The notes beneath the pieces were generated by a model. It was not told the origin of the DNA. It made no database searches and saw nothing but the letters and a program-made list of their open reading frames with translations. Shown one piece after another: positions 10,204 through 35,898 of a DNA stretch of 35,898 bases. Position numbers and translations under genes: made by a program. The stretch is from the IMG/VR virus record IMGVR_UViG_3300009690_000003, one strand, 5' to 3'. The stretch comes from a virus. How positions within the stretch are numbered: the first letter of the stretch is position 1; each line of letters opens with the position of its first letter.

Positions 10204-10490
10204 TGGATGAAATGCGGGTATGGACGTGTGAAAACGGGCATGTGCTGGGGCTGGTGCGGCGGAACGGCCGTGGGATCACGCAGCTGTTGGTGTACCGGCA
10301 AGCAGTGGATATGGCGGCGGAGGAGCCGCAGGCGCCGGAGGTGATGAGCATTGCCGAGGGGACGGTGGTGGACATCCGCTGCAGCGTGTGTGATGCGATG
10401 CGGACGTGGGTGACCGGTGAAGCTGCGATGGTGCGGTTATTGGAGAGCAGACCGGGGATCGGGCATACACCCCCCTGTAGTCCCCCCTAA
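10200..10490 (+). CDS. Hypothetical zinc-ribbon-like protein
   Basis: WTCENGH...RCSVCD (C/H ... CxxC). The stop codon TAA is the loop of the hairpin repeat at 10480-10499. Confidence 0.55.
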   Translation: MMDEMRVWTCENGHVLGLVRRNGRGITQLLVYRQAVDMAAEEPQAPEVMSIAEGTVVDIRCSVCDAMRTWVTGEAAMVRLLESRPGIGHTPPCSPP

Positions 10491-10499
10491 AGGGGGGAC
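10471..10499. repeat. C-rich hairpin repeat (CCTCCCC-TAAA-GGGGAGG family), copy 1
   Basis: GTCCCCCC TAAA GGGGGGAC preceded by a CCCCC half-repeat. Confidence 0.8.
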
Positions 10500-15759: not shown

Positions 15760-17927
15760 TGGCACGACAGAAGCGCAGCACTTTTTTGGAGACGGTGACG
15801 CGATGGGTCAAGACGATCAGCCCGCGCAAGTATGCGATCACATCGATCAGCTCAAACGGGGTGGAAGTGACCCGTTTGGTGGACTTCAACACGTATTGCG
15901 AAGAGGGTTATAAACGCAACGCGGTGGTGTATTCGGCGGTGCGTGAGATCGCGAGGACGGCACCGAGCGCACGGCTGCAGGTGCATAAGCGGCTGGGGCA
16001 GGGGCAGACGGAAATCCAGGAAGATAACCCGATCCAGGACCTGCTGGACTTTCCGAACCCATGGCAGAGCCATTATGACTTTTTGGAGACGCTGATCACG
16101 TATTTGAACCTGGACGGGAACGCGTACATCATCCGAGAACGAGAAGGTGTTAATACAAAAGCGATGTGGCTGCCGAGGCCGGATTTGATGTCGGCCGTGG
16201 TGGACGGGAAAAAGTCGATCTTTGAGGCAAACGCTCTCTTGGGTTATGCCTATATCACGCAGACGGGCGAAAAGCTGTATTTTTTGCCGGAGGACGTGAT
16301 CCACATCAAGTACCCGAACCCGAATGATCCGCACGGCGGGATGGGAAGAGGGCATCCGCCATTGATGGCTGCGGCCGCTGATGCGGATAATGACAATAAT
16401 CAGACCACGTTTATCAAGCAGTTTTTCAAAAACGGCGCGGTGCCATCTGGCATTATTAAATCGAAGAATATTTTGGATGATGGCGAGGTGAGGCGGATCC
16501 AGAGCCGGATCGGAGAGCAGTATTCTGGTGAGGCTAACTGGCACAAGGTGATGGTGCTGGATGCGGATGCGGAGTACCAGCAGACGGGATTGAACCTGGA
16601 CCAGATGGTATTTCCGGACCTACGGGCGATTTCTGAGACAAGGATCTGTGCAGCTTTCAAGGTACCGCCGGTGCTGATTGGCGTGAAGGCCGGGTTGGAT
16701 GCGGCCACATATTCAAACTATGCGCTGGCCAGGCGGGCACTGTGGGAGGACAACATCATCCCGACAACGACGAAGCTGGCCGAAGCGCTGACCCGGGCAT
16801 TATCGGATGAGATGGATGAAGACGTGATCATCGTGGCGGATTACAGCAACGTGGTGGCGCTGCAGGATGACCGCACGAACCGATTTGCCAGGGCAAACCA
16901 GGCGGTGATTGGCGGATGGATCACGGTTAATGAGGCGAGGCGTGAGGTGGGTTTGGGCCCGCTGCCGATGGGTGTGGGCGATGTGCTGTACCGGCCGCTG
17001 ATGAGCGAGGCGGTGGATGATGGGGCGGGAGATGCGAGTAGGAAGATGACCCCTCTCCTAACCTCTCCCCTAAAGGAGAGAGGAATAAAAAAAACAGATG
17101 GTTCTTCAGTTTGGCCAGCGTCTCCTGACGCTGGCACTTCGCTGATGCAGCTTGATGCTGCTTCAGCTTGGAAGGCGTTTGATCGGGTGGCGAGGAAATG
17201 GGAGGGGCAGTTCAAGCGGACTGCGGCCAGGCTGTTCGAGGAGGAAGAGCGCGAGATCGAGGGGCGGATCAACGGGATGAAGGGCAAGTCGATCAAGGCG
17301 ATTGATTTTGAAGCGATTTTGACGGCGATTGCGACCTTCATGGCGGTTGAATCGGTGAAGAAATGGCAGACGGAATTTTTACCGCTGATGATGGGACTGA
17401 TGCAAGAGCAGCTGAGCGCATGGATTGGCTCGGTGGGGATCGACTGGGATATTGAAAACCCGGCGGTGGCCGATTTTATCCGGAGCCACTCGTTTGCATT
17501 TGCGCAGCGGATCAGCGATACGACGATGGAAGATGTGAAGCGGCTGATTTTGGCCGCACAGGGTGAGGGCTGGTCCACGGTGCGGCTGATGGATGAGCTG
17601 AAGGCGGTGTATGGCGGCTGGTCTGACCTGCGGGCGGAGATGATTGCGCGGAGCGAGACGATCCGGAGTTCGAACGCAGGACTGGTGGAGGGGTATAAGC
17701 AGAACGGGATCACGCAGATCGAGTGGTATGCGGCATTGGATGAACGTCTGTGCCCGTTTTGCAATGAGATGCACGGGAAGCAGATTGCGATTGGCGAGGC
17801 GTGGTTTGAGGGCGGGAGCGAGATGTATGTGGGCCAGGAACGGCTGGTGATGGATTATGGCGATGTGTACTGGCCGCCGCTGCACCCGAACTGCCGGTGT
17901 GTGATGCAGCCGGTGATTGGTGATTAG
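15759..17927 (+). CDS. Portal protein fused to a MuF / SPP1 gp7-like head morphogenesis domain
   Basis: The N-terminal ~430 aa are portal-like. The C-terminal part (AADFIRSHSFAFAQRIS...ARSETIRSSNAG...LDERLCPFC...HPNCRC) is the MuF minor head protein signature. TAATG overlap with TerL. Confidence 0.8.
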   Translation: MARQKRSTFLETVTRWVKTISPRKYAITSISSNGVEVTRLVDFNTYCEEGYKRNAVVYSAVREIARTAPSARLQVHKRLGQGQTEIQEDNPIQDLLDFPNPWQSHYDFLETLITYLNLDGNAYIIREREGVNTKAMWLPRPDLMSAVVDGKKSIFEANALLGYAYITQTGEKLYFLPEDVIHIKYPNPNDPHGGMGRGHPPLMAAAADADNDNNQTTFIKQFFKNGAVPSGIIKSKNILDDGEVRRIQSRIGEQYSGEANWHKVMVLDADAEYQQTGLNLDQMVFPDLRAISETRICAAFKVPPVLIGVKAGLDAATYSNYALARRALWEDNIIPTTTKLAEALTRALSDEMDEDVIIVADYSNVVALQDDRTNRFARANQAVIGGWITVNEARREVGLGPLPMGVGDVLYRPLMSEAVDDGAGDASRKMTPLLTSPLKERGIKKTDGSSVWPASPDAGTSLMQLDAASAWKAFDRVARKWEGQFKRTAARLFEEEEREIEGRINGMKGKSIKAIDFEAILTAIATFMAVESVKKWQTEFLPLMMGLMQEQLSAWIGSVGIDWDIENPAVADFIRSHSFAFAQRISDTTMEDVKRLILAAQGEGWSTVRLMDELKAVYGGWSDLRAEMIARSETIRSSNAGLVEGYKQNGITQIEWYAALDERLCPFCNEMHGKQIAIGEAWFEGGSEMYVGQERLVMDYGDVYWPPLHPNCRCVMQPVIGD
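17051..17144. repeat. In-frame repeat insertion in the portal-MuF linker (C-rich hairpin copy 2 plus covarying hairpin)
   Basis: CCCTCTCCTAACCTCTCCCCTAAAGGAGAGAGG is read as PLLTSPLKERG, with the TAA out of frame. GGCCAGCGTCTCCTGACGCTGGCACTTCGCTG lies at 17113-17144. Confidence 0.8.
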
Positions 17928-19957: not shown

Positions 19958-19990
19958 CCCCCTTCCTACCCTCCCCTTTTAGGGGGAGGG
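19958..19990. repeat. C-rich hairpin repeat, copy 3
   Basis: CCCCCTTCCTACCCTCCCC TTTTA GGGGGAGGG, starting 2 nt after the capsid TAA. Confidence 0.8.
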
Positions 19991-22686: not shown

Positions 22687-23556
22687 ATGAACCTTTACAT
22701 CACACCTGCTGAAATTAAATCTGCTGCACCGGATTTGATCCGGTCGACGACAACGAAGTATGACGACCCGCTATACCGGCGCTGCGCGAGCGTGAGCCGG
22801 GCGATTGACCGCCGCTGCAAGCGTCATTTTTACCCACGGATGGAGACGCGCTATTATGCAGGTTCTGGCAACGGGGTGCTGTGGATTGACGACCTGATCT
22901 CAATAAATGCCGTGGCGGTGAGCACCGATGGCGGAAGGACTTACACCACCCTGGCCGCAGATGATTATTATGGTGCCGTTTCTGAGAACTTTAACAGCCC
23001 GTGGAGCTACAACATGATCATCCTGAACCAGGATGGCAGCAGGATGGGCTTTCCGCAGGGAATGCGGTCGGTGCGGATTGTAGGTGAATGGGGTTTTACC
23101 GATGACCGGGCTGCATGCTGGGAGCCGAGCGGGATCACCCTGGAGAGTGAACTGGAAATTTCATCGACAGCCATCGAGGTGAGCGAGGCTGATAAACAGA
23201 ATCGGTATGTGATGGGCACGGCGCTGCAGCTGGGGCGGCTGATTAAGATCGGCAGCGAGATGATGCTGGTGATCGATGTGGATGCGGCAGAAAATGCGGT
23301 TGGCGTGGTGCGTGCCATGAACGGCAGTGTTGCGGCAGCACATGACCCTGCGGATGAAATTTATTTATGGATGCCGCCATTTGACATCAGCCAGGCAGCG
23401 ATGATCAGTGCGGTGCGGGACCTGGCACGGACGCAGCAGGGTTACGTGGATACACGCGGCGGCCTGGAGGTGGGCGGGCAGATGCTGTGGGTGGGCCGCT
23501 GGGATCCGGAGGCGGAGGATAAGATCAGCCGGTACATAAAGACAGGTGTGGGATAA
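22687..23556 (+). CDS. Putative head-tail connector/adaptor protein
   Basis: The N-terminus MNLYITPAEIKSAAPDL...YDDPLYRRCASVSRAIDRRCKRHF resembles gp6-type adaptors. Assigned also by position. Confidence 0.45.
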   Translation: MNLYITPAEIKSAAPDLIRSTTTKYDDPLYRRCASVSRAIDRRCKRHFYPRMETRYYAGSGNGVLWIDDLISINAVAVSTDGGRTYTTLAADDYYGAVSENFNSPWSYNMIILNQDGSRMGFPQGMRSVRIVGEWGFTDDRAACWEPSGITLESELEISSTAIEVSEADKQNRYVMGTALQLGRLIKIGSEMMLVIDVDAAENAVGVVRAMNGSVAAAHDPADEIYLWMPPFDISQAAMISAVRDLARTQQGYVDTRGGLEVGGQMLWVGRWDPEAEDKISRYIKTGVG

Positions 23557-23587
23557 CCCCACCCTACCCTCCCCCTAAAGGGGGAGG
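23557..23587. repeat. C-rich hairpin repeat, copy 4
   Basis: CCCCACCCTACCCTCCCCC TAAA GGGGGAGG, starting directly after the TAA stop. Confidence 0.8.
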
Positions 23588-24094: not shown

Positions 24095-24129
24095 CCCCCC
24101 TCCCGACCTCCCCCCTAAAGAGGGGGAGG
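24095..24129. repeat. C-rich hairpin repeat, copy 5
   Basis: CCCCCCTCCCGACCTCCCCCC TAAAGA GGGGGAGG, starting 2 nt after the TAA stop. Confidence 0.8.
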
Positions 24130-24145
24130 AGAAAAAAGAGGCATT

Positions 24146-24583: not shown

Positions 24584-24592
24584 AGCATGGTT

Positions 24593-24652: not shown

Positions 24653-24666
24653 AATTTGGTGAAACT

Positions 24667-25018: not shown

Positions 25019-25049
25019 TAAACAATTGATTGATTAAGGAGATTTTACA

Positions 25050-26072
25050 ATGAGTGATTATGGTATCAAAACATTTCGACAGCTCCAGATGAACCGGGAA
25101 TCGGCGATCGGTACGCCGGGGGCCAGCTGGTTCAACTGGCGCGGGCTGGGCCTGCTGGACGATCAGCGGGTTTCGGTGTTCCCGGAGGAGGATATTGGCA
25201 TTTTTGGCGGCACCGACCGGCAGTATTTCCCGCAATTGCGCGGTGAGCTGAACATGCCCAGCCAACCGGCCACCTTTGAGCAGCTGGGCCACATTCTGGA
25301 TGCAGGCATTGCCCGGGCAACCCCCGCGGATGACGGGGCAGGGAGCGGCAAGATCCGCACCTACACCATGCCGATTGCGGCGGATGATGCGGTGGATGCC
25401 GATGACCTGCAGACCTACCACATCAAGAACGGCGACAATGCGGCGGTGGATAAGACCGGCGGGGCGTTCGTGAAGAGCTTTGCGCTGGAAGGCGCCCGCA
25501 ACGAAGCCTGGATGCTGACCGTAAACTGGGAAACCCAGGAAGTGGCCAAAGATGGGGACGGGTTTGTGGTTGCCACCGTGCCGGATGTGGAAGAGATGAT
25601 GTTCAACCTTTCAAAGATCTACATCGATGATGAGGACGGGGCCTTTGGCGCCAACCAGGCGGAAGTGGTGCTGACCAATGCCACACTGAACGTGGAAACC
25701 GGCTGGCAGGCCCTGTTCACCGCGGATGGGTCGCTGGCCTACAGCAACATCAAGCAGCGCAAGCCGGAGATCATGCTGAATCTGACGCTGGAGATGACGG
25801 CCTCCGTGGCCGCTGCCGAGCGCGAGAACTGGCGCGCCAGCGTTCCCCGGCTGATCCGCCTGGTGTGTGAGGGCAGCGAGCTGACCACCGAGGGCACCAA
25901 TTATGCCAACAAGACTCTGATCGTTGACGCAGCCGCGAAGTGGGATAAGTTTGACCCCCTGGGCGACGATGACGGCGATGACATCATCACGGGCACCCTG
26001 CGCTGCCGCTACAACGCCGAGAGCGCCAGCTTCTTTGAGATGGTGCTGGTGAACGAGGTGGCAGCCTTATGA
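25050..26072 (+). CDS. Putative major tail (tube) protein
   Basis: Lies immediately upstream of the frameshifted chaperone pair. AAGGAG RBS. 340 aa. Confidence 0.55.
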   Translation: MSDYGIKTFRQLQMNRESAIGTPGASWFNWRGLGLLDDQRVSVFPEEDIGIFGGTDRQYFPQLRGELNMPSQPATFEQLGHILDAGIARATPADDGAGSGKIRTYTMPIAADDAVDADDLQTYHIKNGDNAAVDKTGGAFVKSFALEGARNEAWMLTVNWETQEVAKDGDGFVVATVPDVEEMMFNLSKIYIDDEDGAFGANQAEVVLTNATLNVETGWQALFTADGSLAYSNIKQRKPEIMLNLTLEMTASVAAAERENWRASVPRLIRLVCEGSELTTEGTNYANKTLIVDAAAKWDKFDPLGDDDGDDIITGTLRCRYNAESASFFEMVLVNEVAAL

Positions 26073-26371
26073 AACAGGAAATCAAAGAGCTGGGCGTGAG
26101 CTATAGCCTGCCCGAAAAGGTGACAGTGCAGCAGAGCCTGCAGTATTGGGGCGTGTTTTCTACCGCCATCCACAACAGCCAGATGATGTTTTTGGAGCTG
26201 TGGGCTGTGATCGTGAAGCTGGGGTTGATCAGCGATTGGGACTGTGCGTTTTTTGCCCTGGACACGCCGCTGGAGCAGGTGGACGACCCCCGGGTGGCCG
26301 TGCTGGTGATGGAAGTGTGCAACAGCGTTTACCGGCACATGGAAGGGCTGAAGGTACTGGAAAAAAACTAA
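26069..26371 (+). CDS. Tail assembly chaperone (gpG-like)
   Basis: 100-aa ORF between the tube and tape measure genes. It ends with the slippery A_AAA_AAC immediately before its TAA. Confidence 0.75.
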   Translation: MKQEIKELGVSYSLPEKVTVQQSLQYWGVFSTAIHNSQMMFLELWAVIVKLGLISDWDCAFFALDTPLEQVDDPRVAVLVMEVCNSVYRHMEGLKVLEKN

Positions 26372-26640
26372 TCCAGCAGGCGGCGGATGCGGCCGCCGGG
26401 AAAAGTCCGCCGCCGTTTGAGCTGGAAGTGTTGTGGATGTGCAGGCAGTTTGGCTGCCTGCCCGAGGGCGGCGGATACCTGGACCAGGATGCGAGGCTGA
26501 TGGGACGGGCCGTGATGTGCGAGGAAGTGTACCAGCTGGTGAAGAAGTGGCGCGGGATGGCCGTGAAGGATCTTACCCAGCTGAATGAAGCCGAAAAGCA
26601 GCTGTTCAAGTGGCTGCGTAAAGCGAAGGTGACGATCTGA
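26069..26640 (+). CDS. Tail assembly chaperone frameshift product (gpGT-like; -1 shift at 26362-26368)
   Basis: The -1 frame is open from the slippery site to 26640 (KKLIQQAADAAAGKSPPPFELEV...). This is the canonical G/GT arrangement. Confidence 0.65.
26362..26368 (+). promoter_or_regulatory. Programmed -1 ribosomal frameshift slippery heptamer A_AAA_AAC
   Basis: The zero-frame codons are GAA AAA AAC TAA, matching the X_XXY_YYZ pattern. Confidence 0.65.
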
Positions 26641-26643
26641 TGA

Positions 26644-26712
26644 GAGATTGCTTCGCTTCGCTCGCAATGACAAAGGTGCTCGCAATACCCTTACGGGCAC
26701 AGGTGACAAAAT
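26644..26712. repeat. Repeat cluster in the chaperone-tape measure spacer
   Basis: GAGATTGCTTCGCTTCGCTCGCAATGACA (identical to 14969-14997), then a partial GTGCTCGCAATA, then ACCCTTACGGGCACAGGTGAC (as in 14936-14957). Confidence 0.85.
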
Positions 26713-26740
26713 AGGCATAAGTGACAAGAAGGAATGACTA

Positions 26741-28903
26741 ATGGGTCAATCAATCGTAGAGATCATCATCAAGGCGAGCAACCAGGCTTCGGGCGAGTTT
26801 AAGAAGGCCTTTGGCGATTTGGGCAACCTGGGCAAGGTGGCGGAGGAAACCGGCAAGGGGATGCGCAAGGCTGGGCTGGCGATCACCGCTGGCGTGACCA
26901 CGCCCCTGGTGGGCTTTATCACCACATCGGCCATGGCTGCCGCCCGGGTGGACGGGCTGAAGCTGGCGAATGACCAGCTGGCAAAGGGTGCGGGCTATAC
27001 ATCACAGTTTGTCCAGGAACAGGCGGCGGCGGTTAAGGGCATGGGGATTGAATCAGCAGCCGCCCAGCAAATCATCAGCAAGTTCATCACCGCCCAGCTG
27101 GATTTGGGGGATGCGGCCACGCTGGCCCGGATCGCACAGGACCAGGCGGTGATCAGCGGGGAAAACAGCACCGAGACGATGACACGGCTGACGGATGCCC
27201 TGATCACGGGCAACAGCCAGATGTTCCGCAGCATGAACATGACGCTGGATCTGAGCGGCGCCTACGAGGCGATGGCAGTCGGGCTGGGGAAAAATGTGGA
27301 CGAGCTGAGCGAGACCGAACGGGTCCAGGCCCGGGTGAATGCGGTGATGGAATACGGCACGACCATCGCCGGGACCTACGAAGCGGCCATGGGCGACAGC
27401 TTCAAGCAAATGGGCAGCTTCAAGCGGATGATCAACGATATTGCCGTGGATGCCGGGCAGTACTTCACGCCCGCATTGAACACGGCCGTGTTCGGGTTCA
27501 AGGACCTGCTGGGCACGGTGAGCGAGATGGTGAGCGAGGGCGGCGCACTGGAGCCGGTGCTGGCAGGCTGGGGGGATAAGCTGAACGATGCGGCCGGGTT
27601 CATCGGCAAGTTTGATGACAAATTGAAGGGGATGAAACCCACCACAGCCGGGTTTATCGGTGATATGACCGCAGCGACAGCCGTGATGGGCCCCCTATTG
27701 CTGGTGGGCGGGCAGGCGGTGATCTGGGCCACAACGCTGGCGAAGGCTTTGGGCACGTCCGCTGGAGCACTGGGGATTTATGCCGCCGGGATCTACGCGG
27801 TGACGGCGGCCATGGTCCACCAGGCGAATGAACGAAAACGGCTGATTGCCGATCATCAGGAAATGGCGCAATCGGCGCTGGAGGCTTCAGATTCATACGA
27901 AGACTACCGTGCATCGATGGCGGGGGTTGAAAACCAGATCGATAACCTGGCGGGTGTGACGGGCGGGTATGGCGTGCACCTGGCAGATACGCTGGGTAAA
28001 ACCGTGATCCTGACCAGAGAACAGTGGGAGCAGCAAAAGGCACAAAAGGACCTGGGATCTGCCTACGCGTACAGTGCGGCAGTGATGAAGAGCTATTACG
28101 ATCAGACCGAAACGGGCATTGAGATCACTGATGAGGCCACGGACGCGATCGACGAGCACGAGCGCGCTTTAAACCGGGCGGCGGTGCGGGCCAAGGAATA
28201 TGGCGGGGCCAGCGACATCGCCCGGGAGGCGCTGGAAAAACTGGGTGTGGAAGCTGAAGAACAAGCCCGCCTGATGGACGAGCTGAACGGTTCCACAGAG
28301 AAGCTGACCGCAACAGATTTGCTGTTGGTTGACCTGAACACGAGTTTGACCAAGCTGTGGGCGGAAAATGCGCTCAGCACGGAATCGTACAATGCCGCAT
28401 TGGAATTTGCACACCAACTGGCTGAGGATTACCCTGAAAAGCTTTCGCCAGTCATAGAAATGTTTGGCGAATGGGGCGGTAAGGTGCAGAACATCGGCGA
28501 CCTGCTGCACGGGCTGCCGAGCCAAATTAAAATTGACATCATCCAGACCTGGTATGAGGCGCAGGGCGGGACGTGGGGGGGGGCGGGCAATATCGGTGCA
28601 GGGATTGGTGGCCAAGGGCAAGGACATGTAAACACATTTGCCACGGCGACGGGCGGACCGGTGTACCCGGGGCAGGTCTATCGCTGGCGGGAGTTTGGCG
28701 ATGAGTTTTTCATCCCCAACCAGCCGGGCTATGTGATGCCGCACCGGGAGGTGGAGCGGGCGCGCAGCGGGGGTGGTAAGGGGTTAGGTGAGCTGCATGT
28801 GCACATCCACAGTGCGATCAACCTGGCGGACCGGGCCTGGGCTGAACGTGAGCTGATCCCGCTGTTTCGGGATGTGCTGCGCAGGGAGATGATTGGCGCA
28901 TGA
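26741..28903 (+). CDS. Tail tape measure protein
   Basis: 720-aa Ala/Gly-rich helical protein directly after the chaperones. The central hydrophobic GxxxG-rich segment is typical of tape measure proteins. Confidence 0.8.
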   Translation: MGQSIVEIIIKASNQASGEFKKAFGDLGNLGKVAEETGKGMRKAGLAITAGVTTPLVGFITTSAMAAARVDGLKLANDQLAKGAGYTSQFVQEQAAAVKGMGIESAAAQQIISKFITAQLDLGDAATLARIAQDQAVISGENSTETMTRLTDALITGNSQMFRSMNMTLDLSGAYEAMAVGLGKNVDELSETERVQARVNAVMEYGTTIAGTYEAAMGDSFKQMGSFKRMINDIAVDAGQYFTPALNTAVFGFKDLLGTVSEMVSEGGALEPVLAGWGDKLNDAAGFIGKFDDKLKGMKPTTAGFIGDMTAATAVMGPLLLVGGQAVIWATTLAKALGTSAGALGIYAAGIYAVTAAMVHQANERKRLIADHQEMAQSALEASDSYEDYRASMAGVENQIDNLAGVTGGYGVHLADTLGKTVILTREQWEQQKAQKDLGSAYAYSAAVMKSYYDQTETGIEITDEATDAIDEHERALNRAAVRAKEYGGASDIAREALEKLGVEAEEQARLMDELNGSTEKLTATDLLLVDLNTSLTKLWAENALSTESYNAALEFAHQLAEDYPEKLSPVIEMFGEWGGKVQNIGDLLHGLPSQIKIDIIQTWYEAQGGTWGGAGNIGAGIGGQGQGHVNTFATATGGPVYPGQVYRWREFGDEFFIPNQPGYVMPHREVERARSGGGKGLGELHVHIHSAINLADRAWAERELIPLFRDVLRREMIGA

Positions 28904-30534
28904 ACACTGAGCATTGCTTTTACCTGGAAACCGAGGGCGGCGACGTTTTGGAAACCGAAGGCGGCGAGGATATTTTGCTGTACTGCCTGGTTGAAGGGGC
29001 GATTACTTACGGGTTGATTGTGGACTGGGATGGGCTGGGCCTGTTTGGTCACGGCTGCAGCGAGGAGGATTTTATTGTACGCTGGAGCGCAGACCGGGGC
29101 CGAGAGCGGCTGATCGGCGGACGCGGGCAGGGGTTTGAGCCCTACCGGGTGGGGACGCTGCGGGTGACCCTGGATAACAGCAGCGGGCGCTACAACCCTT
29201 ACAATACGGCAGGGCCGCTGTATGGCAAGCTGCGCACCGGTAAGCAGATGCGCTTCCAGGCGGCCGTGTATGACCCTGCCGAGCCGCTGGGTTTTGTCAG
29301 TTATGACCTGTTTGCCGGGACGCTGACCAACCTGACGCCTGCGGGCTGGAACAAAAATGCCTATATGGATTTTGAAGACGGGCTGGGCAGGCTGAACGGG
29401 GTGGAAATTGAGCAGATTGGCACGGATGCCTACCAGGACGATGTGGCGGGCTGGATCAAGAACATCGCTGACCTGGCCGGGTATCCCTACGATGTGCAGG
29501 CCAGTGAAAATGACCCGAATGACGCCTTTCTGGCGGTCATGTATATCCCGCCGACAGATGCGCTGCAGGAGCTGCACCGTCTGACCAGCGCAACACTGGG
29601 GTCGATTGCCGCTGAGGCCGACGGCACCCTGGCCTATCACAGCATCCACGATGCGGATGCGGCGGAGATCACACTGACGGACGAGAACACATTGAGTGAT
29701 GTGATGCTGCCCCTGCCCTGGGAATATGTCCGTGACCGGGTGGTGGTGCACGGCTACCAGCTGGACTGGTGCTATTCCGTGACCCCCAGGCCCTTTGGCG
29801 ATAACACACCACGGGTGGACGTGCCCGCCGGGGAAAGCGTGACCGTCCAGGGGAAATGGCACTTACGTTTTGCTATGGATGATGGCACGATAATACGCAA
29901 AGTGCTGGTGGGCGGCTGGCCGGGCAATAATTTTACAAATATGCAGGTGTGGTCTTCGACGACGGGCAACTACGCGGACCGGGCAATTTCATCTTTTGTA
30001 ACAGGCACGGTGGACTTTAACGGGGTGGACTTTATGATCATGACCTTCAGCAACAGCAGCGGGGTGACCCGCTACGTGCACGAGGTGGTGCTGGACCCGG
30101 CCGGATCGTATCAGTTTGAGCCGAAGGACCGGATGTTCAGTTATGGTGGTGAGCGGACCGGCTTTTGCAACGGCGAGTTTGTGATCAAGAATAACCTGTA
30201 CTGGTCTGTTTTTATGTGGCTGTTTGCCGGATCATCCTATTATTCGAGCGTGATGGCCAACATCACCGCTGCGCAACAGGCACGGCTGGACCGGATCGGC
30301 GGGTTGCTGATCGACTACCTGAGCGAGGAACAGCCCTTCCCGGTGCTGCAAATCGAGCAGCGGCCAGAGGTGCAGTTTGGGCTGGAGGTGGAGCGGCGCG
30401 TGCATTACACCTCAGACCAGCTGGGAATTGATGCCGATTACCGGGTGGCGGGACTGAAGCATGAGACGCTGGGAACGACCCAGGCGGTGCGCACGACGGT
30501 GTTTTTATACCCGTTGATACCGGATGGATCTTAA
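28900..30534 (+). CDS. Minor tail protein (distal tail / Dit-like)
   Basis: ATGA overlap with the tape measure gene. GTLRVTLDNSSGRYNPYNTAGPLYGKLRTGKQMRF matches the siphovirus tail component pattern. The N-terminus has a tandem LETEGGD duplication. Confidence 0.6.
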   Translation: MNTEHCFYLETEGGDVLETEGGEDILLYCLVEGAITYGLIVDWDGLGLFGHGCSEEDFIVRWSADRGRERLIGGRGQGFEPYRVGTLRVTLDNSSGRYNPYNTAGPLYGKLRTGKQMRFQAAVYDPAEPLGFVSYDLFAGTLTNLTPAGWNKNAYMDFEDGLGRLNGVEIEQIGTDAYQDDVAGWIKNIADLAGYPYDVQASENDPNDAFLAVMYIPPTDALQELHRLTSATLGSIAAEADGTLAYHSIHDADAAEITLTDENTLSDVMLPLPWEYVRDRVVVHGYQLDWCYSVTPRPFGDNTPRVDVPAGESVTVQGKWHLRFAMDDGTIIRKVLVGGWPGNNFTNMQVWSSTTGNYADRAISSFVTGTVDFNGVDFMIMTFSNSSGVTRYVHEVVLDPAGSYQFEPKDRMFSYGGERTGFCNGEFVIKNNLYWSVFMWLFAGSSYYSSVMANITAAQQARLDRIGGLLIDYLSEEQPFPVLQIEQRPEVQFGLEVERRVHYTSDQLGIDADYRVAGLKHETLGTTQAVRTTVFLYPLIPDGS

Positions 30535-30545
30535 ATAAGGAGATA

Positions 30546-31163
30546 ATGATGGTTAAAATAAGTGAATTGAACGTGCTGAGCGAGCCAGCACCCAACGATG
30601 AGCTGCTGATCAGGGATGTTTCTGAAGCGCTGGAGGCGGCACAATCGAAAAGGGTTAAGCTGACGAACCTGTCTGTTGGGCCTGTTGGCGCGGTAATTCA
30701 ATACGCTGGCACGAGCGCACCGAACGGTTGGCTACTGTGCCAGGGCCAGGCTGTATCCAGGGCTATCTATGAAGAACTATTCGCAGCGATCGGTACGATC
30801 TATGGGGCGGGGGATGGATCGACAACGTTCAACCTGCCGGACCTAAGGGGTAAAGTTCCGGTTGGCTTGGATTTAGCTGACTCTAAATTTGATGCTTTAG
30901 GAAATATGGGAGGGGAAAAGTCGCATGTGCTTAGTGTTGATGAAATGCCAACCCACACACATATCCAAAATTCTCATGGTCACACCATTAAATACACCTC
31001 TACTAAGGCAGGCAGTGGGGCAACTATCGCATCAGTAAATGGCGAATTAACAGCAAGCGACGTTGTAAACAATGCAACGGCTACAAATAAAAATACGGGC
31101 GGAGGTAAAGCGCATAACAACCTGCAACCCTACATGATTTTGAATTACATCATCAAAATATAA
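30546..31163 (+). CDS. Tail fibre protein with phage tail-collar domain
   Basis: PNGWLLCQGQAVSRAIYEELFAAIG..YGAGDGSTTFNLPDLRGKVPVG...HTH...HNNLQPYMILNYIIK is the tail-collar (MdpB-like) signature. Confidence 0.85.
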   Translation: MMVKISELNVLSEPAPNDELLIRDVSEALEAAQSKRVKLTNLSVGPVGAVIQYAGTSAPNGWLLCQGQAVSRAIYEELFAAIGTIYGAGDGSTTFNLPDLRGKVPVGLDLADSKFDALGNMGGEKSHVLSVDEMPTHTHIQNSHGHTIKYTSTKAGSGATIASVNGELTASDVVNNATATNKNTGGGKAHNNLQPYMILNYIIKI

Positions 31164-31177
31164 GTGGAGGTGAAGTG

Positions 31178-32716
31178 ATGATCAGTGGTAAAGGCATTTA
31201 CATCTGGCAGCTCAAACGCTGTGAGGGCGGGGATATGGCGAAGGTGGTTGACCGCCTGAAATGGGCGGGCATGACCCACGTGCTGCCGAAAATCGCCGAT
31301 GGGGTTCACAGCGATGTGAACGGAAACTGGACCTACCTGCCCGCCCTGGTGGACCTGTGCCACAAGGCCGGGATCAAGGTGTTCGCCTGGCAGTATATTT
31401 ACGGCGGCAACCCGGTCCAGGAGGCGATCCGGGCGGTGGTGGAGCTGAGACGGCTGCCGTTTGACGGGTTTGTGATCAACGCCGAGCATCAGTTCCGGGA
31501 TTTGGCAAACAATAAAACGGCCGCAAAGGAATATTGTGAGCGGATCCGCCAGGATTTCCCGAACCTGCCGCTGGGGTTGTCCTCTTACCGCTACCCGCAT
31601 TATCACGCCAGGTTCCCGTTCACCGAGTTTCTGACCTACTGCAATTTCAATATGCCCCAGGTGTACTGGATGCAGGCCAACGGCACGGTGCCAGCGCAGC
31701 TTGAAAATACGATCAAAGCCTACGAGCCTTATCCGCAAAGACCGATGATCCCGACCGGCGCAGCCTTTGGCGAGCACGGCTGGACGGCGGTTCCAGCAGA
31801 CCAGGCAATCTTCATCAACGAAGCCAAGCGGCACGGCTTGACCGGGTGCAATTGGTGGGAATATTACGAGGCGTTTCACCGCTTCCCTGAGCTGGGAAAG
31901 GCGATCGCAGAAAACAACACGGATTGGAGCGATAACATGACAGACCCAGAACACTCACCTTTAGAACGGCTTTACTGGCCGTGTGATGAGAAATGGAAGG
32001 TAACGCAGTACTTCGGAGAACGCCCGAACGTCTACACCATCAGCAGAGGCCACAACGGTTTGGATTTTGGCATCCCCGTTGGCAACCCGATCTATGCCGC
32101 TGAAGCTGGCCTGGTTGAGGTGGCGATGGAACAAACCACAGGCTACGGGCGTCATGTCAGGTTGCGCCACAGTCACGGGCTGACCATCTACGGGCATCTA
32201 TCCCGCATCGATGTTTCGGTGGGGCAGGCGGTGCACGCCAAACAGCGCATCGGCTTATCCGGTGGGGCCACATCGGACCCGTACGCGGGCATGAGTACGG
32301 GCCCGCATCTGCACTTTGAGTACCGCTGGGATGTGACCGCACCGCAAGTGCCTGGGGGATATGCTTACAACGCGGTCGACGTGCTGCCTTTGCTGATCAG
32401 CCATACCACAGAGAAGCCCATCATGCGCGCCAGGGTGATTGCGGGTGCCCTGAACGTGCGCACGGGTGTTGGCACAAGCTACACCGCCTTATACCACTAT
32501 TTGAAGGGTACGACGGTGGATGTGTTCGAAGAAAAGGATAACTGGCTGCGCATTGGCATTGGCCGCTGGTTCTCGGGCTTACCGGCGTATGTTGAACGGC
32601 TGCCCGCACCCGTCGACCCTGATCCCGAGCCACCCGATCCGACCGACCCTGAGCCGGTGCACGACCTGGCGTGGTTGGTGCGGATCCATACAACGGATAA
32701 AGAGGAGCATCCGTAA
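31178..32716 (+). CDS. Three-domain lysin: TIM-barrel glycosidase-like, M23 peptidase, SH3-like
   Basis: M23 motifs HNGLDFG...GHLS...GPHLHFEYR. C-terminal ARVIAGALNVRTGVGTSY...DNWLRI is SH3b-like. The N-terminal ~250 aa look like a glycoside-hydrolase-type barrel. GGAGG RBS. Confidence 0.8.
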   Translation: MISGKGIYIWQLKRCEGGDMAKVVDRLKWAGMTHVLPKIADGVHSDVNGNWTYLPALVDLCHKAGIKVFAWQYIYGGNPVQEAIRAVVELRRLPFDGFVINAEHQFRDLANNKTAAKEYCERIRQDFPNLPLGLSSYRYPHYHARFPFTEFLTYCNFNMPQVYWMQANGTVPAQLENTIKAYEPYPQRPMIPTGAAFGEHGWTAVPADQAIFINEAKRHGLTGCNWWEYYEAFHRFPELGKAIAENNTDWSDNMTDPEHSPLERLYWPCDEKWKVTQYFGERPNVYTISRGHNGLDFGIPVGNPIYAAEAGLVEVAMEQTTGYGRHVRLRHSHGLTIYGHLSRIDVSVGQAVHAKQRIGLSGGATSDPYAGMSTGPHLHFEYRWDVTAPQVPGGYAYNAVDVLPLLISHTTEKPIMRARVIAGALNVRTGVGTSYTALYHYLKGTTVDVFEEKDNWLRIGIGRWFSGLPAYVERLPAPVDPDPEPPDPTDPEPVHDLAWLVRIHTTDKEEHP

Positions 32717-32750
32717 CCCCTCTCCCATCCTCTCCCCTAAAGGGGAGAGG
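32717..32750. repeat. C-rich hairpin repeat, copy 6
   Basis: CCCCTCTCCCATCCTCTCCCC TAAA GGGGAGAGG, starting directly after the lysin TAA. Confidence 0.85.
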
Positions 32751-32783
32751 AGCTTTCGCCGCTTACAACATGTTTGGAAACTT

Positions 32784-34085
32784 ATGAAACTGGATGCGTT
32801 TTACCGGGAGGTGCTCAGCCGAAAGGGGCTGGCCCAGGACATCATGCGGGAATTGTACGGCGCCATCCTATCACAACAGGCGGCCAAGATGCAGATTGCC
32901 GGGATCCGGCGGCATGTGCGTTTTAAAGAGAAGATGGAGACGCCCGAGGAGAAGCAGCAGGACCTGGACGAGCGCAGCTACCACGAGGACGGCACCTGGA
33001 CGACCAAGCGCCTGATCATGCTTTCGGAGGAGGAGAGCCAGGACCCGCAGGCGATCATGGTCAAAATGGGGCTGGACCCGCTGAAGTGGGATGTGGTCAG
33101 CTTTAAAATAAAGCGCAACTGGTGGGATACGCCGATGAAGCTGAAGGATGAGGACGGGGTGGATCACGCCACGTCCCGGCGCAATTACCAGTTTTTGGTC
33201 GAGCTGAGGGTGAAGCCTTCGGGGTTGATCAGCACGGATGTGGTGGCTAAAGTGTTTGCGGACCTGCCCGCGCCGGAACTGGAGCTGTTTAGCTATCAGC
33301 CCGGCCGGAAGATGCTGGAGCTGCCGATCATGGACCTGCACCTGGGCAAGCTGGCCTGGGGCGAGGAGACCGGCGAGGATTACGACCTGAAGATCGCTGA
33401 GCAGCTGTACAGGGATACTGTACGTGATTTTTTGGGCAAGGTGAGCCATTACAGCTTGCCGATCGAGCTGATCCTGTTCCCGGTGGGACAGGATTTTTTC
33501 CATGTAGACAACACCACCAGCATGACCACGGGGGGCACGCTGGTAGACACGGACACGCGCTGGGCTAAGATGTATGACAGCGGGGTGCGTTTGCTGGTGT
33601 GGACGGTGGATCAGCTGCGTCAGATCGCCCCGGTGGAGATCATGTACGTGCCCGGCAACCACGACAAGACGCTGAGCTACTGTGCGGTGTACACGCTGCA
33701 TGCCTATTATCAAAACTGCGAGGCGGTGGCGGTGGACCTGAACCCGGGTCCCAGGAAATATGTGCGCTATGGCGTGAATTTGATCGGCTTTTCCCATGGC
33801 AAGGAGGGCAAGCGCATCTTCAACCTGATGCAGCAGGAGCGAGCCCAGGATTGGGGTGAGACGATCTACCGGGAGTGGCATTTGGGCGACCTCCACCATG
33901 AGGAGACGAAGGAGGAGGGCGGCGTCAAGGTGCGGCGGATCAGTTCGATCACCGCGGCGGATGCCTGGCATGTCGAGAAGGGCTTCCGGGCCATCCGGCA
34001 GGCGCAGGCGTTTGTGTGGGATCGGGAGCAGGGGCCGGAGCTGATGATCGATAGCAATGTGATGGTGAGGGAGGAAAGGGATTAG
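32784..34085 (+). CDS. Calcineurin-like metallophosphoesterase with an N-terminal extension
   Basis: Motifs DLHLG, GQDFFHVDN, VPGNHD, GFSHG and GDLHH appear in the canonical order. The ATG at 32784 was chosen because the upstream part of the track ORF overlaps the lysin. Confidence 0.7.
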   Translation: MKLDAFYREVLSRKGLAQDIMRELYGAILSQQAAKMQIAGIRRHVRFKEKMETPEEKQQDLDERSYHEDGTWTTKRLIMLSEEESQDPQAIMVKMGLDPLKWDVVSFKIKRNWWDTPMKLKDEDGVDHATSRRNYQFLVELRVKPSGLISTDVVAKVFADLPAPELELFSYQPGRKMLELPIMDLHLGKLAWGEETGEDYDLKIAEQLYRDTVRDFLGKVSHYSLPIELILFPVGQDFFHVDNTTSMTTGGTLVDTDTRWAKMYDSGVRLLVWTVDQLRQIAPVEIMYVPGNHDKTLSYCAVYTLHAYYQNCEAVAVDLNPGPRKYVRYGVNLIGFSHGKEGKRIFNLMQQERAQDWGETIYREWHLGDLHHEETKEEGGVKVRRISSITAADAWHVEKGFRAIRQAQAFVWDREQGPELMIDSNVMVREERD

Positions 34086-34117
34086 GGAATGGGGAATAGT
34101 GAGTAGGGATTAGGAGA
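34083..34117. repeat. TAGGGAW-type heptamer array (5 units)
   Basis: TAGGGAA TGGGGAA TAGTGAG TAGGGAT TAGGAGA. The first unit contains the stop codon of 32784-34085. Confidence 0.75.
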
Positions 34118-34123
34118 TACTTT

Positions 34124-34179
34124 TGTCATTGCGAGGAGCGCAGCGACGACTGCTTGCGTCCTGTAAAGGAAGCAATCTC
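34124..34179. repeat. GAGATTGCT...GCAATGACA repeat, inverted orientation, long variant
   Basis: TGTCATTGCGAG...(33 nt)...AGCAATCTC. Confidence 0.75.
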
Positions 34180-34306
34180 AGCTTGGGCGTGAAAGGTATT
34201 CGATGAAGCAACCGTCTGGTGTGGGAGCAGGTACCAGGAAGATCCATGGCAGCACAGCGTTTAAAGCTTAACCAGCCCTGTTGGGTGCGCCTGCTCAGCT
34301 TCATAC

Positions 34307-34331
34307 GCGGGTTCGATTCCCGCCACGTCCA
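34307..34331 (+). other. Orphan tmRNA/tRNA-Ala-type 3' end (T arm plus acceptor 3' strand)
   Basis: GCGGG TTCGATT CCCGC CACGTCC A, with T at the position corresponding to U70 of a G3:U70 pair. No matching 5' acceptor strand (GGRCGTG) within 300 nt on either side. Confidence 0.55.
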
Positions 34332-34493
34332 CTGATTGCCTTTTTAGAAAAGGCGCCGTACTGGAGTGAGTACACGATAGCCGCCCACCATGCAGGGTAA
34401 TCTGTCCCATACACTCAATGGGTTGCTAGCAAGAGCGTAAAATGGGCATGGAAGGCAATCTTAGTCGACCTACCACGAGTAGGCACGATAGCA

Positions 34494-34524
34494 AACACCG
34501 CCAGGGATGGCGGTGTTTTGGTTT
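34494..34524. terminator. Bidirectional intrinsic terminator
   Basis: AACACCGCC AGGGAT GGCGGTGTT forms a 9-bp stem followed by TTGGTTT. It lies between the end of the plus-strand late transcript and the 3' end of the minus-strand peptide gene. Confidence 0.7.
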
Positions 34525-34530
34525 AAAGAG

Positions 34531-34623
34531 TCAGCTGGGATCGGGCGAGTTAAAGTATGCGATCAGGAAAATGATCACGATCAGCGCATAAACGACGATT
34601 TCTGGGGTGGAGAGTTGATCCAT
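34531..34623 (-). CDS. 30-aa hydrophobic peptide
   Basis: MDQLSTPEIVVYALIVIIFLIAYFNSPDPS has a single TM helix. It ends at the terminator and is divergent from 34707-35201. Confidence 0.4.
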   Translation of the reverse strand: MDQLSTPEIVVYALIVIIFLIAYFNSPDPS

Positions 34624-34706
34624 GATATAAATATTACATCAAATGGGGAAAATCATATATAATTAACTTACACGAACTTAAGTGGTTTTGGGAAAAGAGG
34701 GTTGAA

Positions 34707-35201
34707 ATGTCTGAATTCTTAACTTTATCTTGTCCAACATGCAGTGGAAAACTGCAAATTACTGAAGATATTGATCGTTTCGCTTGTGCTCATTGCGGTA
34801 ATGAGCATGTTGTAAAAAGAAGCGGCGGCATTGTATCTTTGAAGCCAGTTTTTGAGGCAATGTCAAAGGGGGTTGATAACACAGCAAGTGAATTGGCAAT
34901 CGCTCGGTTAGATAAAGAAATTGACGAAATTAGCGAGAAAATTGCGACCTTGCAGACACAAATCGACGCATCAGCAGGATATTTGGTTGGTGGCTTGATT
35001 ATTACTGGTATTGGCGTAGCTTTGTGGATTGGGCTTGAATGTGCTACCGCTGGTTTTGGGTTGATAATTCCTGGAATAATTGGAATATTGATGTTTGTTG
35101 CTTCACTTGAAAAAAAGCCTGAAAAAGAAAAACTTCAAGAGAAACTTAAGGAATTAAAGACCAACCGAAAAGCCCATTATGATAAAGTGAACAATATTTA
35201 G
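34707..35201 (+). CDS. Zinc-ribbon / coiled-coil / double-TM membrane protein
   Basis: CPTCSGK...CAHCGNEH zinc ribbon, a helical linker, then two hydrophobic helices (LVGGLIITGIGVALWIGL, GLIIPGIIGILMFVASL). AT-rich moron-like gene with an AAGAGGG RBS. Confidence 0.7.
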   Translation: MSEFLTLSCPTCSGKLQITEDIDRFACAHCGNEHVVKRSGGIVSLKPVFEAMSKGVDNTASELAIARLDKEIDEISEKIATLQTQIDASAGYLVGGLIITGIGVALWIGLECATAGFGLIIPGIIGILMFVASLEKKPEKEKLQEKLKELKTNRKAHYDKVNNI

Positions 35202-35226
35202 CATTCCATAAGGAAATTAAAAGGGA

Positions 35227-35249
35227 GCAGCCGCCTTTTTAGCGGCTGC
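35227..35249. terminator. Hairpin after 34707-35201 (T tract only on the minus-strand side)
   Basis: GCAGCCGC CTTTTTA GCGGCTGC. Confidence 0.4.
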
Positions 35250-35301
35250 TGAGAAGGGGGAGGGTAAGAATTTTCTCCTTGCCTCTCTACCGGTTCAACC
35301 G

Positions 35302-35317
35302 GCTTTTCCTTCGCAGG
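35302..35317 (+). repeat. 16-nt copy of the tRNA anticodon-arm sequence in inverted orientation relative to the tRNA gene
   Basis: GCTTTTCCTTCGCAGG equals the sense sequence of tRNA positions 23-38 (complement of 35409-35424). Confidence 0.85.
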
Positions 35318-35375
35318 TGAACTCATTATAGTTTATTCTTGGGAAAATTGCAATAATTTGTATGGGTTCAATACA

Positions 35376-35447
35376 TGCCCCCGACCAGATTCGAACCGAT
35401 ATCTTATCCCTGCGAAGGAAAAGCTTTTTCCATTAAGCTACGGGTGC
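35376..35447 (-). tRNA. tRNA-like gene, anticodon CGC (Ala-type) but without G3:U70; two stem mismatches
   Basis: Hand-folded cloverleaf of 72 nt: GCACCCG TA GCTT AATGGAAA AAGC T TTTCC TTCGCAG GGATA AGAT ATCGG TTCGAAT CTGGT CGGGGGC A. U8, A14, G18G19 and the GTTCGAAT T loop are present. A3-G70 and U28-U42 are mismatches. A TATAAT lies 12 nt upstream. Confidence 0.6.
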
Positions 35448-35525
35448 ATGTGTTAATAATTATACGCCGGTCATAAAAAGAATTAATATATATGGCCGAT
35501 ATTTTAGGATGGCACTAAATACCGA

Positions 35526-35898
35526 TTACAACCCCCACTTCTCAACCGGTGAGGCGTGGCGGTGGGCGTCATCCAGGTCGGATTGGCTGATGGCCAGGTA
35601 GCGCTTGACCATGTCGAGCGTGGTGTGGCCGAGTATCTCCTGCAGCGTGTAGATGTTGGGGTAATTGCGCAGGTAATTGACGGCGAAGGTGTGGCGGAAG
35701 TCGTGCGGCGTGTAATGGGGGAGCTCGGCCCGGGCGGCGATCCGCTCGAGGATGTGGCGCAGGTGGGTGCGGGTGAGCGGCCCGCCGTTTTGGGTGGCAA
35801 ACAGGTGCTGGCCCATGGGATCGTCCTTGCGGTCCGCTGCCAGGTAGCGCCAGATGGCCTGGCCGGTGCGCGCTGAGAAGGGTAGCATGCGCTCTTTG
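35526..35898 (-). CDS. int: Tyrosine integrase, C-terminal third (same gene as 1-686)
   Basis: HDFRHTFAVNYL (HxxR) and LGHTTLDMVKRYL (His, catalytic Tyr). The stop is at 35526-35528. The frame continues through the 123-nt overlap. Confidence 0.92.
   Translation of the reverse strand, partial: KERMLPFSARTGQAIWRYLAADRKDDPMGQHLFATQNGGPLTRTHLRHILERIAARAELPHYTPHDFRHTFAVNYLRNYPNIYTLQEILGHTTLDMVKRYLAISQSDLDDAHRHASPVEKWGL
35776..35898. repeat. Terminal overlap identical to 1-123
   Basis: Exact identity on direct reading. Confidence 0.95.

What the first reader, a model, noticed from the sequence alone, without database searches (positions are those of the whole stretch)
32717..32750. C-rich hairpin element (CCTCTCCCC-TAAA-GGGGAGAGG) docked 0-2 nt after TAA stops of late genes
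There are six copies: 10471-10499, 17051-17081, 19958-19990, 23557-23587, 24095-24129 and 32717-32750. Each has a half-repeat of the 5' arm, a 3-5 nt spacer and then an 8-9 bp hairpin. Stem differences between copies are compensated (CCTCTCCCC/GGGGAGAGG, CCCTCCCC/GGGGAGGG, CCTCCCCC/GGGGGAGG, GTCCCCCC/GGGGGGAC). Four copies begin 0-2 nt after the TAA of the capsid, connector, gp10-like and lysin genes. In one copy the loop TAA is itself the stop codon of 10200-10490. One copy is read through in frame in the portal gene. None has a T tract, so they are not classical intrinsic terminators. They could be mRNA 3' stabilisers or processing sites, or a mobile element with a preference for TAAC or a similar target that can donate or replace stop codons.
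Basis: seen in the sequence. Interest (0 to 1): 0.6.

Follow-up and report, generated by a model that had tools for sequence, protein, structure and literature searches.

The report
BoxC-type triplex-hairpin repeats in phage
The six C-rich hairpins are real copies of a known but poorly understood bacterial DNA repeat (BoxC / "intrastrand triplex motif": a hairpin plus a third, mirror-image block), here sitting at gene ends of a temperate phage, so this is a new setting for a known kind of element and not a new kind.

Summary
All six copies exist at the stated places. Each copy is therefore three blocks: a pyrimidine block, its mirror, and a complementary purine block. That is the layout of E. 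coli BoxC / PIT / TM_ECO intrastrand triplex motifs (PMC4666352). A copy in the closest relative is 87.5% identical over 39 nt to an E. coli BoxC.

Five of the six copies are missing at the matching sites of a syntenic relative with about 75% nucleotide identity. Where they are present, gene ends are rewritten: a new C-terminus, a stop codon supplied by the loop, or overlapping genes pushed apart.

All 12 copies found in this phage group point the same way, with both C blocks on the sense strand. Four begin 0-2 nt after a TAA stop. Three are read in frame.

A hairpin after the capsid gene is conserved in position, though not in sequence, among relatives. I therefore think the transcribed hairpin most likely acts as a REP-like intercistronic stem-loop. 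The third block is more likely a DNA-level feature.

There are no T tracts, so these are not classical terminators. The host genome could not be searched. This scan has reported the same repeat class before on other DNA, including Chloroflexota, CPR bacteria and other phages.

The parts
10470..10499 (+). Copy 1. Third block 10470-10477, spacer 10478-10479, 5' arm 10480-10487, loop 10488-10491, 3' purine arm 10492-10499. The loop TAA (10488-10490) is the stop of ORF 10200-10490. A further G-rich stretch at 10500-10505 can pair with the start of the third block.
   Evidence: (-26.8 kcal/mol). Absent at the matching site of G002.
17050..17083 (+). Copy 2. Third block 17050-17058, spacer TAA 17059-17061, 5' arm 17062-17070, loop 17071-17074, 3' arm 17075-17083 (one stem mismatch). 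It is read in frame in the variable linker between the portal and MuF-like parts of ORF 15759-17927.
   Evidence: G002 lacks it. L156 has a different variant at the same linker position, also in frame.
19958..19990 (+). Copy 3. Third block 19958-19966, spacer 19967-19968, 5' arm 19969-19977, loop, 3' arm ending at 19990. It starts 2 nt after the capsid TAA (19953-19955).
   Evidence: This is the only copy with an ortholog in G002 (g2rc 19345-19380), and there an arm-length change is compensated.
23556..23587 (+). Copy 4. Third block 23556-23563 (with A opposite the A-T pair), spacer 23564-23567, 5' arm 23568-23575, loop TAAA, 3' arm 23580-23587. It follows the TAA (23554-23556) of the head-tail adaptor-like gene 22687-23556 and fills the gap up to the next ribosome-binding site.
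   Evidence: It is a clean insertion relative to G002, where the stop is TGA.
24095..24129 (+). Copy 5. Third block 24095-24103, spacer 24104-24106, 5' arm 24107-24115, loop, 3' arm 24121-24129. It starts 2 nt after the TAA (24090-24092) of the Neck1/tail-completion-like gene 23598-24092.
   Evidence: In G002 the two genes overlap (stop/start overlap) and the C-terminus differs.
32717..32751 (+). Copy 6 (the given finding). Third block 32717-32725, spacer 32726-32728, 5' arm 32729-32737, loop TAAA 32738-32741, 3' arm 32742-32750 (a tenth pair is possible). It starts 0 nt after the TAA (32714-32716) of the M23-peptidase/SH3 gene 31175-32716.
   Evidence: (-20.3 kcal/mol, z -3.8). It is 91% identical over 35 nt to a copy at a non-orthologous site of G002.

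Best explanation
Shown:
- Each site is a unit of about 30-35 nt. It consists of an A, a pyrimidine block, a 1-4 nt spacer, the mirror image of that block, a 4-7 nt loop, and a purine block complementary to the second block.
- This is the architecture of BoxC / PIT / TM_ECO 'intrastrand triplex motifs', and the sequence is close to theirs.
- The units are gained and lost as blocks between closely related phages.
- They occur only where they do little harm: between a stop codon and the next ribosome-binding site, with the loop TAA serving as the stop, or in frame in variable linkers.
- All copies in this phage group have the two C blocks on the sense (non-template) strand.

Inferred:
- Once inserted, the transcribed hairpin (base 11-14 nt after the stop, -17 to -27 kcal/mol for the intergenic copies) works like a REP element. 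It would be a stable intercistronic stem-loop that blocks 3'-to-5' decay or partly attenuates read-through, dividing the late polycistronic mRNA into segments.
- The third block is more likely a DNA-level feature of the repeat family. It could form a purine-motif triplex on the single-stranded G-rich template strand, or H-DNA from the mirror repeat.
- The uniform orientation may reflect selection against placing the G-rich double block on the non-template strand of a heavily transcribed operon. In that orientation such tracts block transcription in vitro.
For: Class:
- Third-block statistics and mirror-versus-direct comparison.
- G002 copies fit the published TM_ECO pattern with 1-2 substitutions, and window copy 6 with 3.
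- The G002 copy is 87.5% identical over 39 nt to an unannotated E. coli gldA-yijF spacer that shows the BoxC layout.
- Description of the class in PMC4666352.

Dynamics:
- Five of six copies are absent at the orthologous G002 sites.
- Near-identical copies lie at non-orthologous sites.
- C-termini are rewritten.
- In-frame copies occur in the window, G002 and L156.

Orientation: 12 copies on the sense strand and 0 opposite across 20 sequences, which are the window, two full relatives and 17 partial loci. This runs against the G>C composition of the sense strand.

RNA role:
- Relatives with 60-84% capsid identity carry unrelated GC hairpins without T tracts at the same post-capsid position.
- Other stem-loops without T tracts fill neighbouring late-gene gaps.
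- A classical T-tract terminator-like site exists elsewhere, at 33470-33495.
- REP precedent, from the RepRanger paper's account of Newbury 1987 and Liang 2015 (PMC12306157): REPs act as an exonuclease barrier, and those closer than 16 nt to a stop down-regulate translation.

Third block at DNA level: across 111 viral instances, the block's base opposite the A-T pair is A 92, T 14, G 4, C 1. That fits a purine-motif T.A-T triplet on the G strand and not a pyrimidine-motif RNA triplex.

Orientation-dependent transcription blockage: abstract of PMC3561996.
Against: - There are no transcript data.
- The source paper reports that an earlier study found no promoter or terminator activity for E. coli PIT elements, and that its own probing saw no stable triplex in vivo (PMC4666352).
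- In a broad viral sample the class shows no orientation preference relative to neighbouring ORFs (15 vs 16, crude ORF calls). Any RNA role is therefore not a property of the class.
- Five of the six copies are dispensable in a close relative.
- Docking at 0-2 nt is partly forced, because two of the four gaps have almost no free space. Copies in two relatives lie 8 and 21 nt after the stop.
- The orientation argument is inference only.
Confidence: 0.6

Rival explanations
1. The elements are a functionless, selfish or instability-prone repeat. BoxC-type units spread by an unknown copying or recombination process and persist only in slots where they are neutral. They give the phage no RNA or regulatory benefit. 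The uniform orientation comes from a strand-specific insertion process, such as insertion into single-stranded lagging-strand template, or from purifying selection.
For: Presence/absence differences with G002. Near-identical copies at unrelated sites. In-frame copies in linkers. The class is linked to local genome variability, and the source paper reports no promoter or terminator activity in E. coli (PMC4666352). The same genome carries other small hairpin repeat families.
Against: The post-capsid site keeps a hairpin in relatives even though the sequence is replaced. The copies differ in sequence yet each keeps three-way complementarity. No transposase or RAYT-like gene was seen among the ten window proteins scanned against Pfam.
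Confidence: 0.3
2. The elements are translation-termination regulators. A stable structure less than 16 nt after the stop hinders the terminating ribosome and lowers the output of the upstream gene, as reported for REP elements.
For: The hairpin base lies 11-14 nt after the stop in the four intergenic window copies and in the G002 post-capsid copy. The REP rule is reported in PMC12306157, citing Liang 2015.
Against: One target is the major capsid gene, for which reduced output seems unhelpful. Copies in relatives lie 8 and 21 nt from the stop. There is no experimental support in this system.
Confidence: 0.1
3. The element forms an RNA triple helix at transcript 3' ends. The sense transcript would fold into a pyrimidine-motif triplex (C+.G-C and U.A-U) that protects the 3' end better than a plain hairpin.
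For: The sense orientation is uniform. In this phage group I count T (10) more often than A (4) opposite A-T pairs in the block sequences listed, which suits a pyrimidine motif. PMC4666352 states that pyrimidine-type intrastrand triplexes can form in RNA.
Against: Runs of 7-8 protonated cytosines are unfavourable near neutral pH (PMC4666352). Four positions in four of the 12 copies, and 92 of 111 class-wide instances, carry A where U would be required. Relatives manage with plain hairpins at the post-capsid site.
Confidence: 0.07
4. The elements are classical intrinsic (Rho-independent) terminators.
For: They are GC-rich stem-loops at gene ends.
Against: No T tract follows any copy, and none of the five copies in the scanned part is listed as terminator-like. 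Genes continue immediately downstream within one module. A T-tract terminator-like site does exist at 33470-33495. PIT elements were reported to have no terminator activity (PMC4666352).
Confidence: 0.03

Closest known systems
BoxC / PIT elements / TM_ECO intrastrand triplex motif (Bachellier 1990s; Hoyne et al. 2000; Holder et al. 2015, PMC4666352)
   Same: Three blocks of about 9 nt (two alike in mirror relation and one complementary). A 3-nt-class spacer and a 3-6 nt loop. G/C-rich. Multi-copy and mostly intergenic. Variable between close relatives. The sequence is near the published pattern, and a copy in the relative G002 is 87.5% identical to an E. coli copy.
   Different: The elements lie in a phage genome, whereas the 2015 paper found none on phages or plasmids. 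All copies share one orientation relative to transcription, whereas E. coli shows none. Copies abut stop codons or are read in frame. Block sequences vary between copies, whereas E. coli copies are nearly identical. T is more common than A opposite the A-T pairs of the stem.
REP / BIME elements of Enterobacteria and Pseudomonas
   Same: Short dispersed palindromes in intercistronic gaps. They are known to stabilise upstream mRNA, and when closer than 16 nt to a stop they affect translation (PMC12306157).
   Different: There is no conserved GTAG-type head (only copy 1 happens to contain GTAG). No RAYT transposase was found. REPs lack a third mirror block.
Rickettsia palindromic elements (RPEs)
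   Same: Palindromic repeats that can be inserted in frame into protein-coding genes and translated as extra loops.
   Different: From my own knowledge, RPEs are about 100-150 bp and specific to Rickettsia. Here the unit is about 35 nt, and most window copies are intergenic.
H-DNA-forming homopurine/homopyrimidine mirror repeats
   Same: The first two blocks form a homopyrimidine mirror repeat, which is the sequence requirement for H-DNA. Transcription blockage by such tracts depends on orientation (PMC3561996).
   Different: The tracts are very short (about 20 nt) and are joined to an inverted repeat, which allows a fold within one strand.

Membership tests
BoxC / PIT / TM_ECO intrastrand triplex motif | Three consecutive blocks: a complementary pair, plus a third block able to form base triplets with the purine arm (mirror relation to the pyrimidine arm) | tested here: met
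   All six copies form 7/8 to 9/10 allowed triplets. Mirror beats direct repeat in 6 of 6. Product of chance probabilities 2e-15.
BoxC / PIT / TM_ECO intrastrand triplex motif | Block length of about 9 nt, a short (about 3 nt) spacer between the like blocks, and a 3-6 nt hairpin loop | tested here: met
   Blocks are 8-10 nt, spacers 1-4 nt and loops 4-7 nt.
BoxC / PIT / TM_ECO intrastrand triplex motif | Match to the published TM_ECO sequence pattern | tested here: inconclusive
   There is no exact match. G002 copies fit with 1 and 2 substitutions, and window copy 6 with 3. The other window copies need more than 4.
BoxC / PIT / TM_ECO intrastrand triplex motif | Sequence similarity to genuine E. 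coli copies | tested here: met
   The G002 copy aligns at 87.5% over 38-39 nt to unannotated intergenic DNA in 2188 of 5426 E. coli genomes. The gldA-yijF spacer shows the three-block layout. Window copy 6 is 91% identical to that G002 copy.
BoxC / PIT / TM_ECO intrastrand triplex motif | Formation of a stable intrastrand triplex by the isolated strand (CD/NMR) | not testable with these tools
   This needs oligonucleotide biophysics. Only Watson-Crick folding could be computed.
REP / REPIN elements | A conserved tetranucleotide head (GTAG-like) and an associated RAYT transposase | tested here: not met
   The flanks are not conserved apart from a single A. No RAYT-like hit appeared among the ten window proteins scanned against Pfam. 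The host genome was not available.
Intrinsic (Rho-independent) terminators | A GC-rich stem-loop followed directly by a U tract | tested here: not met
   No T run follows any purine block. None of the five copies in 17000-35898 is listed by the terminator-like scan.
Rfam RNA families | A match to any curated covariance model | tested here: not met
   Only a tRNA is found in the window at gathering thresholds.

The most novel reading that the evidence does not exclude
In this phage lineage the BoxC-type unit has been co-opted as a device coupled to translation termination. The third block, which starts 0-2 nt after the stop, would lie on the hairpin as an RNA triple helix. A terminating ribosome would have to peel it off, so that translation of the upstream late gene controls whether the 3' end of its own message is capped against decay.
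Probability: 0.07. Interest if true: 0.8.

Novelty: new member of a known kind. Interest (0 to 1): 0.35.

Why it matters
BoxC/PIT motifs have been known since the 1990s, and no function has been established for them. The main paper found none on phages. This small, complete, one-directional phage genome carries six copies. The copies share one orientation, most abut stop codons, and matched filled and empty sites exist in a close relative. That makes it a compact natural system for two questions: whether the hairpin or the third block does anything at the RNA or DNA level, and how such repeats spread and rewrite gene ends. If the copies prove to be neutral passengers, the finding remains a clean example of small repeats remodelling phage gene boundaries.

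Tried and rejected
- A megablast of the head module against GenBank phages found nothing.
- A loose search for the 3' arm alone is not enriched.
- The nearest held record, G001, is a 100% identical fragment and so is no use for comparison.
- Two scans of genome contigs with the capsid protein and with its alignment found no prophage relative. The host genome therefore could not be identified or counted.
- The genome search cannot draw relatives for a virus record. The metagenome records behind L154-L156 are not held.
- The atlas search on the terminase and the cluster look-up gave no host taxon.
- The only host hint is that distant capsid homologues (39-40% identity) are named as Chloroflexi/Chloroflexota/Anaerolineae MAG proteins.
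- I considered avoidance of Shine-Dalgarno-like G-rich sequence as the cause of the orientation bias and judged it weak, because G-rich motifs are common on the sense strand.
- A strict insertion target is not supported by the flanks, and no target-site duplication is visible.
- A G-quadruplex or i-motif reading was considered but could not be tested.

Full report
**Observation**

The window is a complete temperate phage genome of about 35.8 kb.
- The last 100 nt tested recur exactly at 24-123, which points to a terminal overlap of about 123 nt.
- Two genes have tyrosine-recombinase (integrase-family) domains, one has a helix-turn-helix (repressor-like) domain and one a Toprim/zinc-finger (primase-like) domain.
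- Large terminase, a portal fused to a MuF-like domain, protease, HK97-type capsid, head-tail adaptor-like and Neck1-like genes, and an M23 peptidase are also present.
- Apart from the integrase, the repressor-like gene and an ORF at the right end, the long ORFs lie on the + strand, which is G-rich (G 11997, C 7794).

All six reported hairpins are present. An unbiased list of perfect hairpins with stems of at least 7 bp contains five of them, and a 6-bp threshold adds the imperfect portal copy. RNA folding gives -12.5 to -26.8 kcal/mol. The stated relations to stop codons are all correct.

The upstream "half-repeat" is not a direct copy of the 5' arm. It is the arm's mirror image, which means it runs parallel to the purine 3' arm.
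- In all six copies the block matches the mirror better than the direct sequence.
- The chance of a block that good within 1-6 nt of the hairpin is 1e-3 to 1e-2 per copy, with a product of 2e-15.
- Each element is therefore three blocks: pyrimidine, short spacer, mirror pyrimidine, loop, complementary purine.

**Identity**

The hits include asymmetric blocks whose mirror relation cannot be a by-product of symmetry.

The literature names this layout. It is BoxC, rediscovered as PIT elements and later as the TM_ECO intrastrand triplex motif (PMC4666352). According to that paper:
- the G-rich strand forms a very stable purine-motif triplex in vitro;
- no stable triplex was seen in vivo;
- an earlier study found no promoter or terminator activity;
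- E. coli copies show no orientation bias;
- loci carrying the motif vary more between strains;
- the motif was not found on phages or plasmids.

Copies in the closest relative fit the published pattern with 1-2 substitutions, and window copy 6 fits with 3. The relative's copy aligns at 87.5% over 38-39 nt to unannotated intergenic DNA in 2188 E. coli genomes. The gldA-yijF spacer shows two such units. No Rfam family matches.

**Comparative evidence**

G002 is a complete contig of 36,886 bp that is syntenic with the window, with aligned blocks mostly 67-81% identical (about 75%).
- It has the post-capsid copy at the orthologous place, with a compensated change in arm length.
- It lacks the other five window copies.
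- At the 23557 site the upstream protein ends identically, but the stop is TGA in G002 and TAA in the window.
- At 24095 the C-terminus differs, and a stop/start overlap in G002 is replaced in the window by a 53-nt gap with its own ribosome-binding site.
- At 10471 the last seven codons and the stop come from the element.

G002 has copies of its own. Two are read in frame inside genes. One of these uses the same reading frame as the window's portal copy, giving SPLKGRG against SPLKERG. Another lies at a gene junction, where the loop holds a TAA.

Window copy 6 is 91% identical to a G002 copy at an unrelated site. L156 (84% capsid identity) has a different variant at the same portal-linker position as the window, also in frame.

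A general detector was run on both strands of the window, two full relatives and 17 partial loci. It finds 12 elements, all with the third block upstream on the sense strand, and none in the opposite orientation. By my count about ten of these are independent events, which gives a two-sided p of about 0.002. The result also runs against the strand's G excess.

**Function**

Downstream of the capsid gene, relatives at 60-84% identity carry GC-rich hairpins of unrelated sequence, none with a T tract. More distant relatives have none. Position is conserved while sequence turns over, which argues that a hairpin there is useful.

Neighbouring late-gene gaps hold other stems without T tracts, at 20488-20518 and 24599-24612. 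A classical T-tract terminator-like site exists at 33470-33495.

The nearest established mechanism is that of REP elements. They form a barrier to 3' exonucleases, and when closer than 16 nt to the stop they affect the terminating ribosome (PMC12306157). Here the stem base lies 11-14 nt after the stop.

**The third block**

Across 111 distinct viral instances of one subfamily, the block's base opposite the single A-T pair is A 92, T 14, G 4, C 1. A at this position is a mismatch for an RNA or DNA pyrimidine-motif triplex, but it is a legitimate T.A-T triplet on the G-rich strand. This points to a DNA-level purine-motif fold for the class. In this phage group T is commoner (10 against 4), so an RNA triplex is not excluded. 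It is nonetheless chemically unfavourable at neutral pH.

**Orientation and docking**

In a broad viral sample, the class shows no orientation preference relative to neighbouring ORFs (15 vs 16, crude ORF calls). The uniform orientation here is therefore specific to this lineage.

One inference is selection against putting the G-rich double block on the non-template strand. In that orientation such tracts block transcription in vitro (PMC3561996). A strand-specific insertion process is the alternative.

Docking at 0-2 nt is only partly informative. Two of the four gaps have no free room, while the other two have 15-30 nt to spare. By my rough estimate the combined chance is about 0.003. Copies in two relatives lie 8 and 21 nt after the stop. 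All five stop-linked copies use TAA, against 15 of 42 stops overall.

**Limits**

The host could not be reached. Distant capsid homologues are named as Chloroflexi/Anaerolineae MAG proteins.

I reached the BoxC reading, before consulting earlier notes of this scan. Those notes report the same class in Chloroflexota, CPR bacteria and other phages, including one phage with stop-abutting copies. I treat them as leads and not as support.

**Verdict**

The feature is real, and it is a new member of a known but functionally unexplained repeat class. The most likely role here is a REP-like intercistronic stem-loop carried by a dispersed repeat that rewrites gene ends.

Noticed in passing
window 1-123 and 35776-35898: The last 100 nt tested recur exactly at 24-123, pointing to a terminal overlap of about 123 nt. 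The window is therefore a circularly closed assembly of a complete phage genome. G002 is circularly permuted relative to it.
   Followed up: partly
window 13843-13864 and 17114-17135: A second hairpin family with a TCCT loop and compensated 9-bp stems. One copy lies next to the C-rich element in the portal linker and is read in frame. L156 has two such modules in its linker. Earlier notes of this scan describe it as a two-hairpin repeat.
   Followed up: no
window 10515-10543: A near-consensus promoter-like site (TTGACA, 17 nt, TAGAAT) starts 15 nt after copy 1. That copy therefore sits between the end of the early genes and a probable late promoter. G002 keeps a promoter-like site there but has no hairpin.
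   Followed up: partly
window 20488-20518: A strong 10-bp GC hairpin without a T tract lies in the gap after gene 20022-20462 (gap fold -25.3 kcal/mol). A smaller one lies at 24599-24612. Stem-loops between late cistrons seem to be a general habit of this phage.
   Followed up: partly
window 33470-33495: The only strong classical terminator-like site on the sense strand of the late region (11-pair stem followed by a T run). It lies downstream of the peptidase gene and the small ORFs that follow it.
   Followed up: no
window 11184-11201 and 12132-12149: Two copies of a 7-bp C5GA hairpin with a GNGA loop bracket a segment of about 950 bp. Earlier notes of this scan discuss this as a cassette scar.
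   Followed up: no
L276 (E. coli NZ_CP029747.1, gldA-yijF spacer) 87-190: Two BoxC units in opposite orientation lie about 25 nt apart in unannotated intergenic DNA. The second is nearly the same sequence as the copy at g2rc 8377-8411 in the phage relative G002, despite the very different source.
   Followed up: partly
L090, L095, L105, L106, L135 (IMG/VR contigs, GC 0.29-0.46): Long poly-C runs followed by poly-G runs, flanked by recurring short motifs in low-GC viral contigs. These are either real homopolymer hairpins or assembly artefacts, and I left them out of the statistics.
   Followed up: no
window 35375-35448: A single tRNA-Ala (CGC) gene on the minus strand lies just upstream of the integrase gene, which runs across the window ends. 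It may relate to the attachment site.
   Followed up: no
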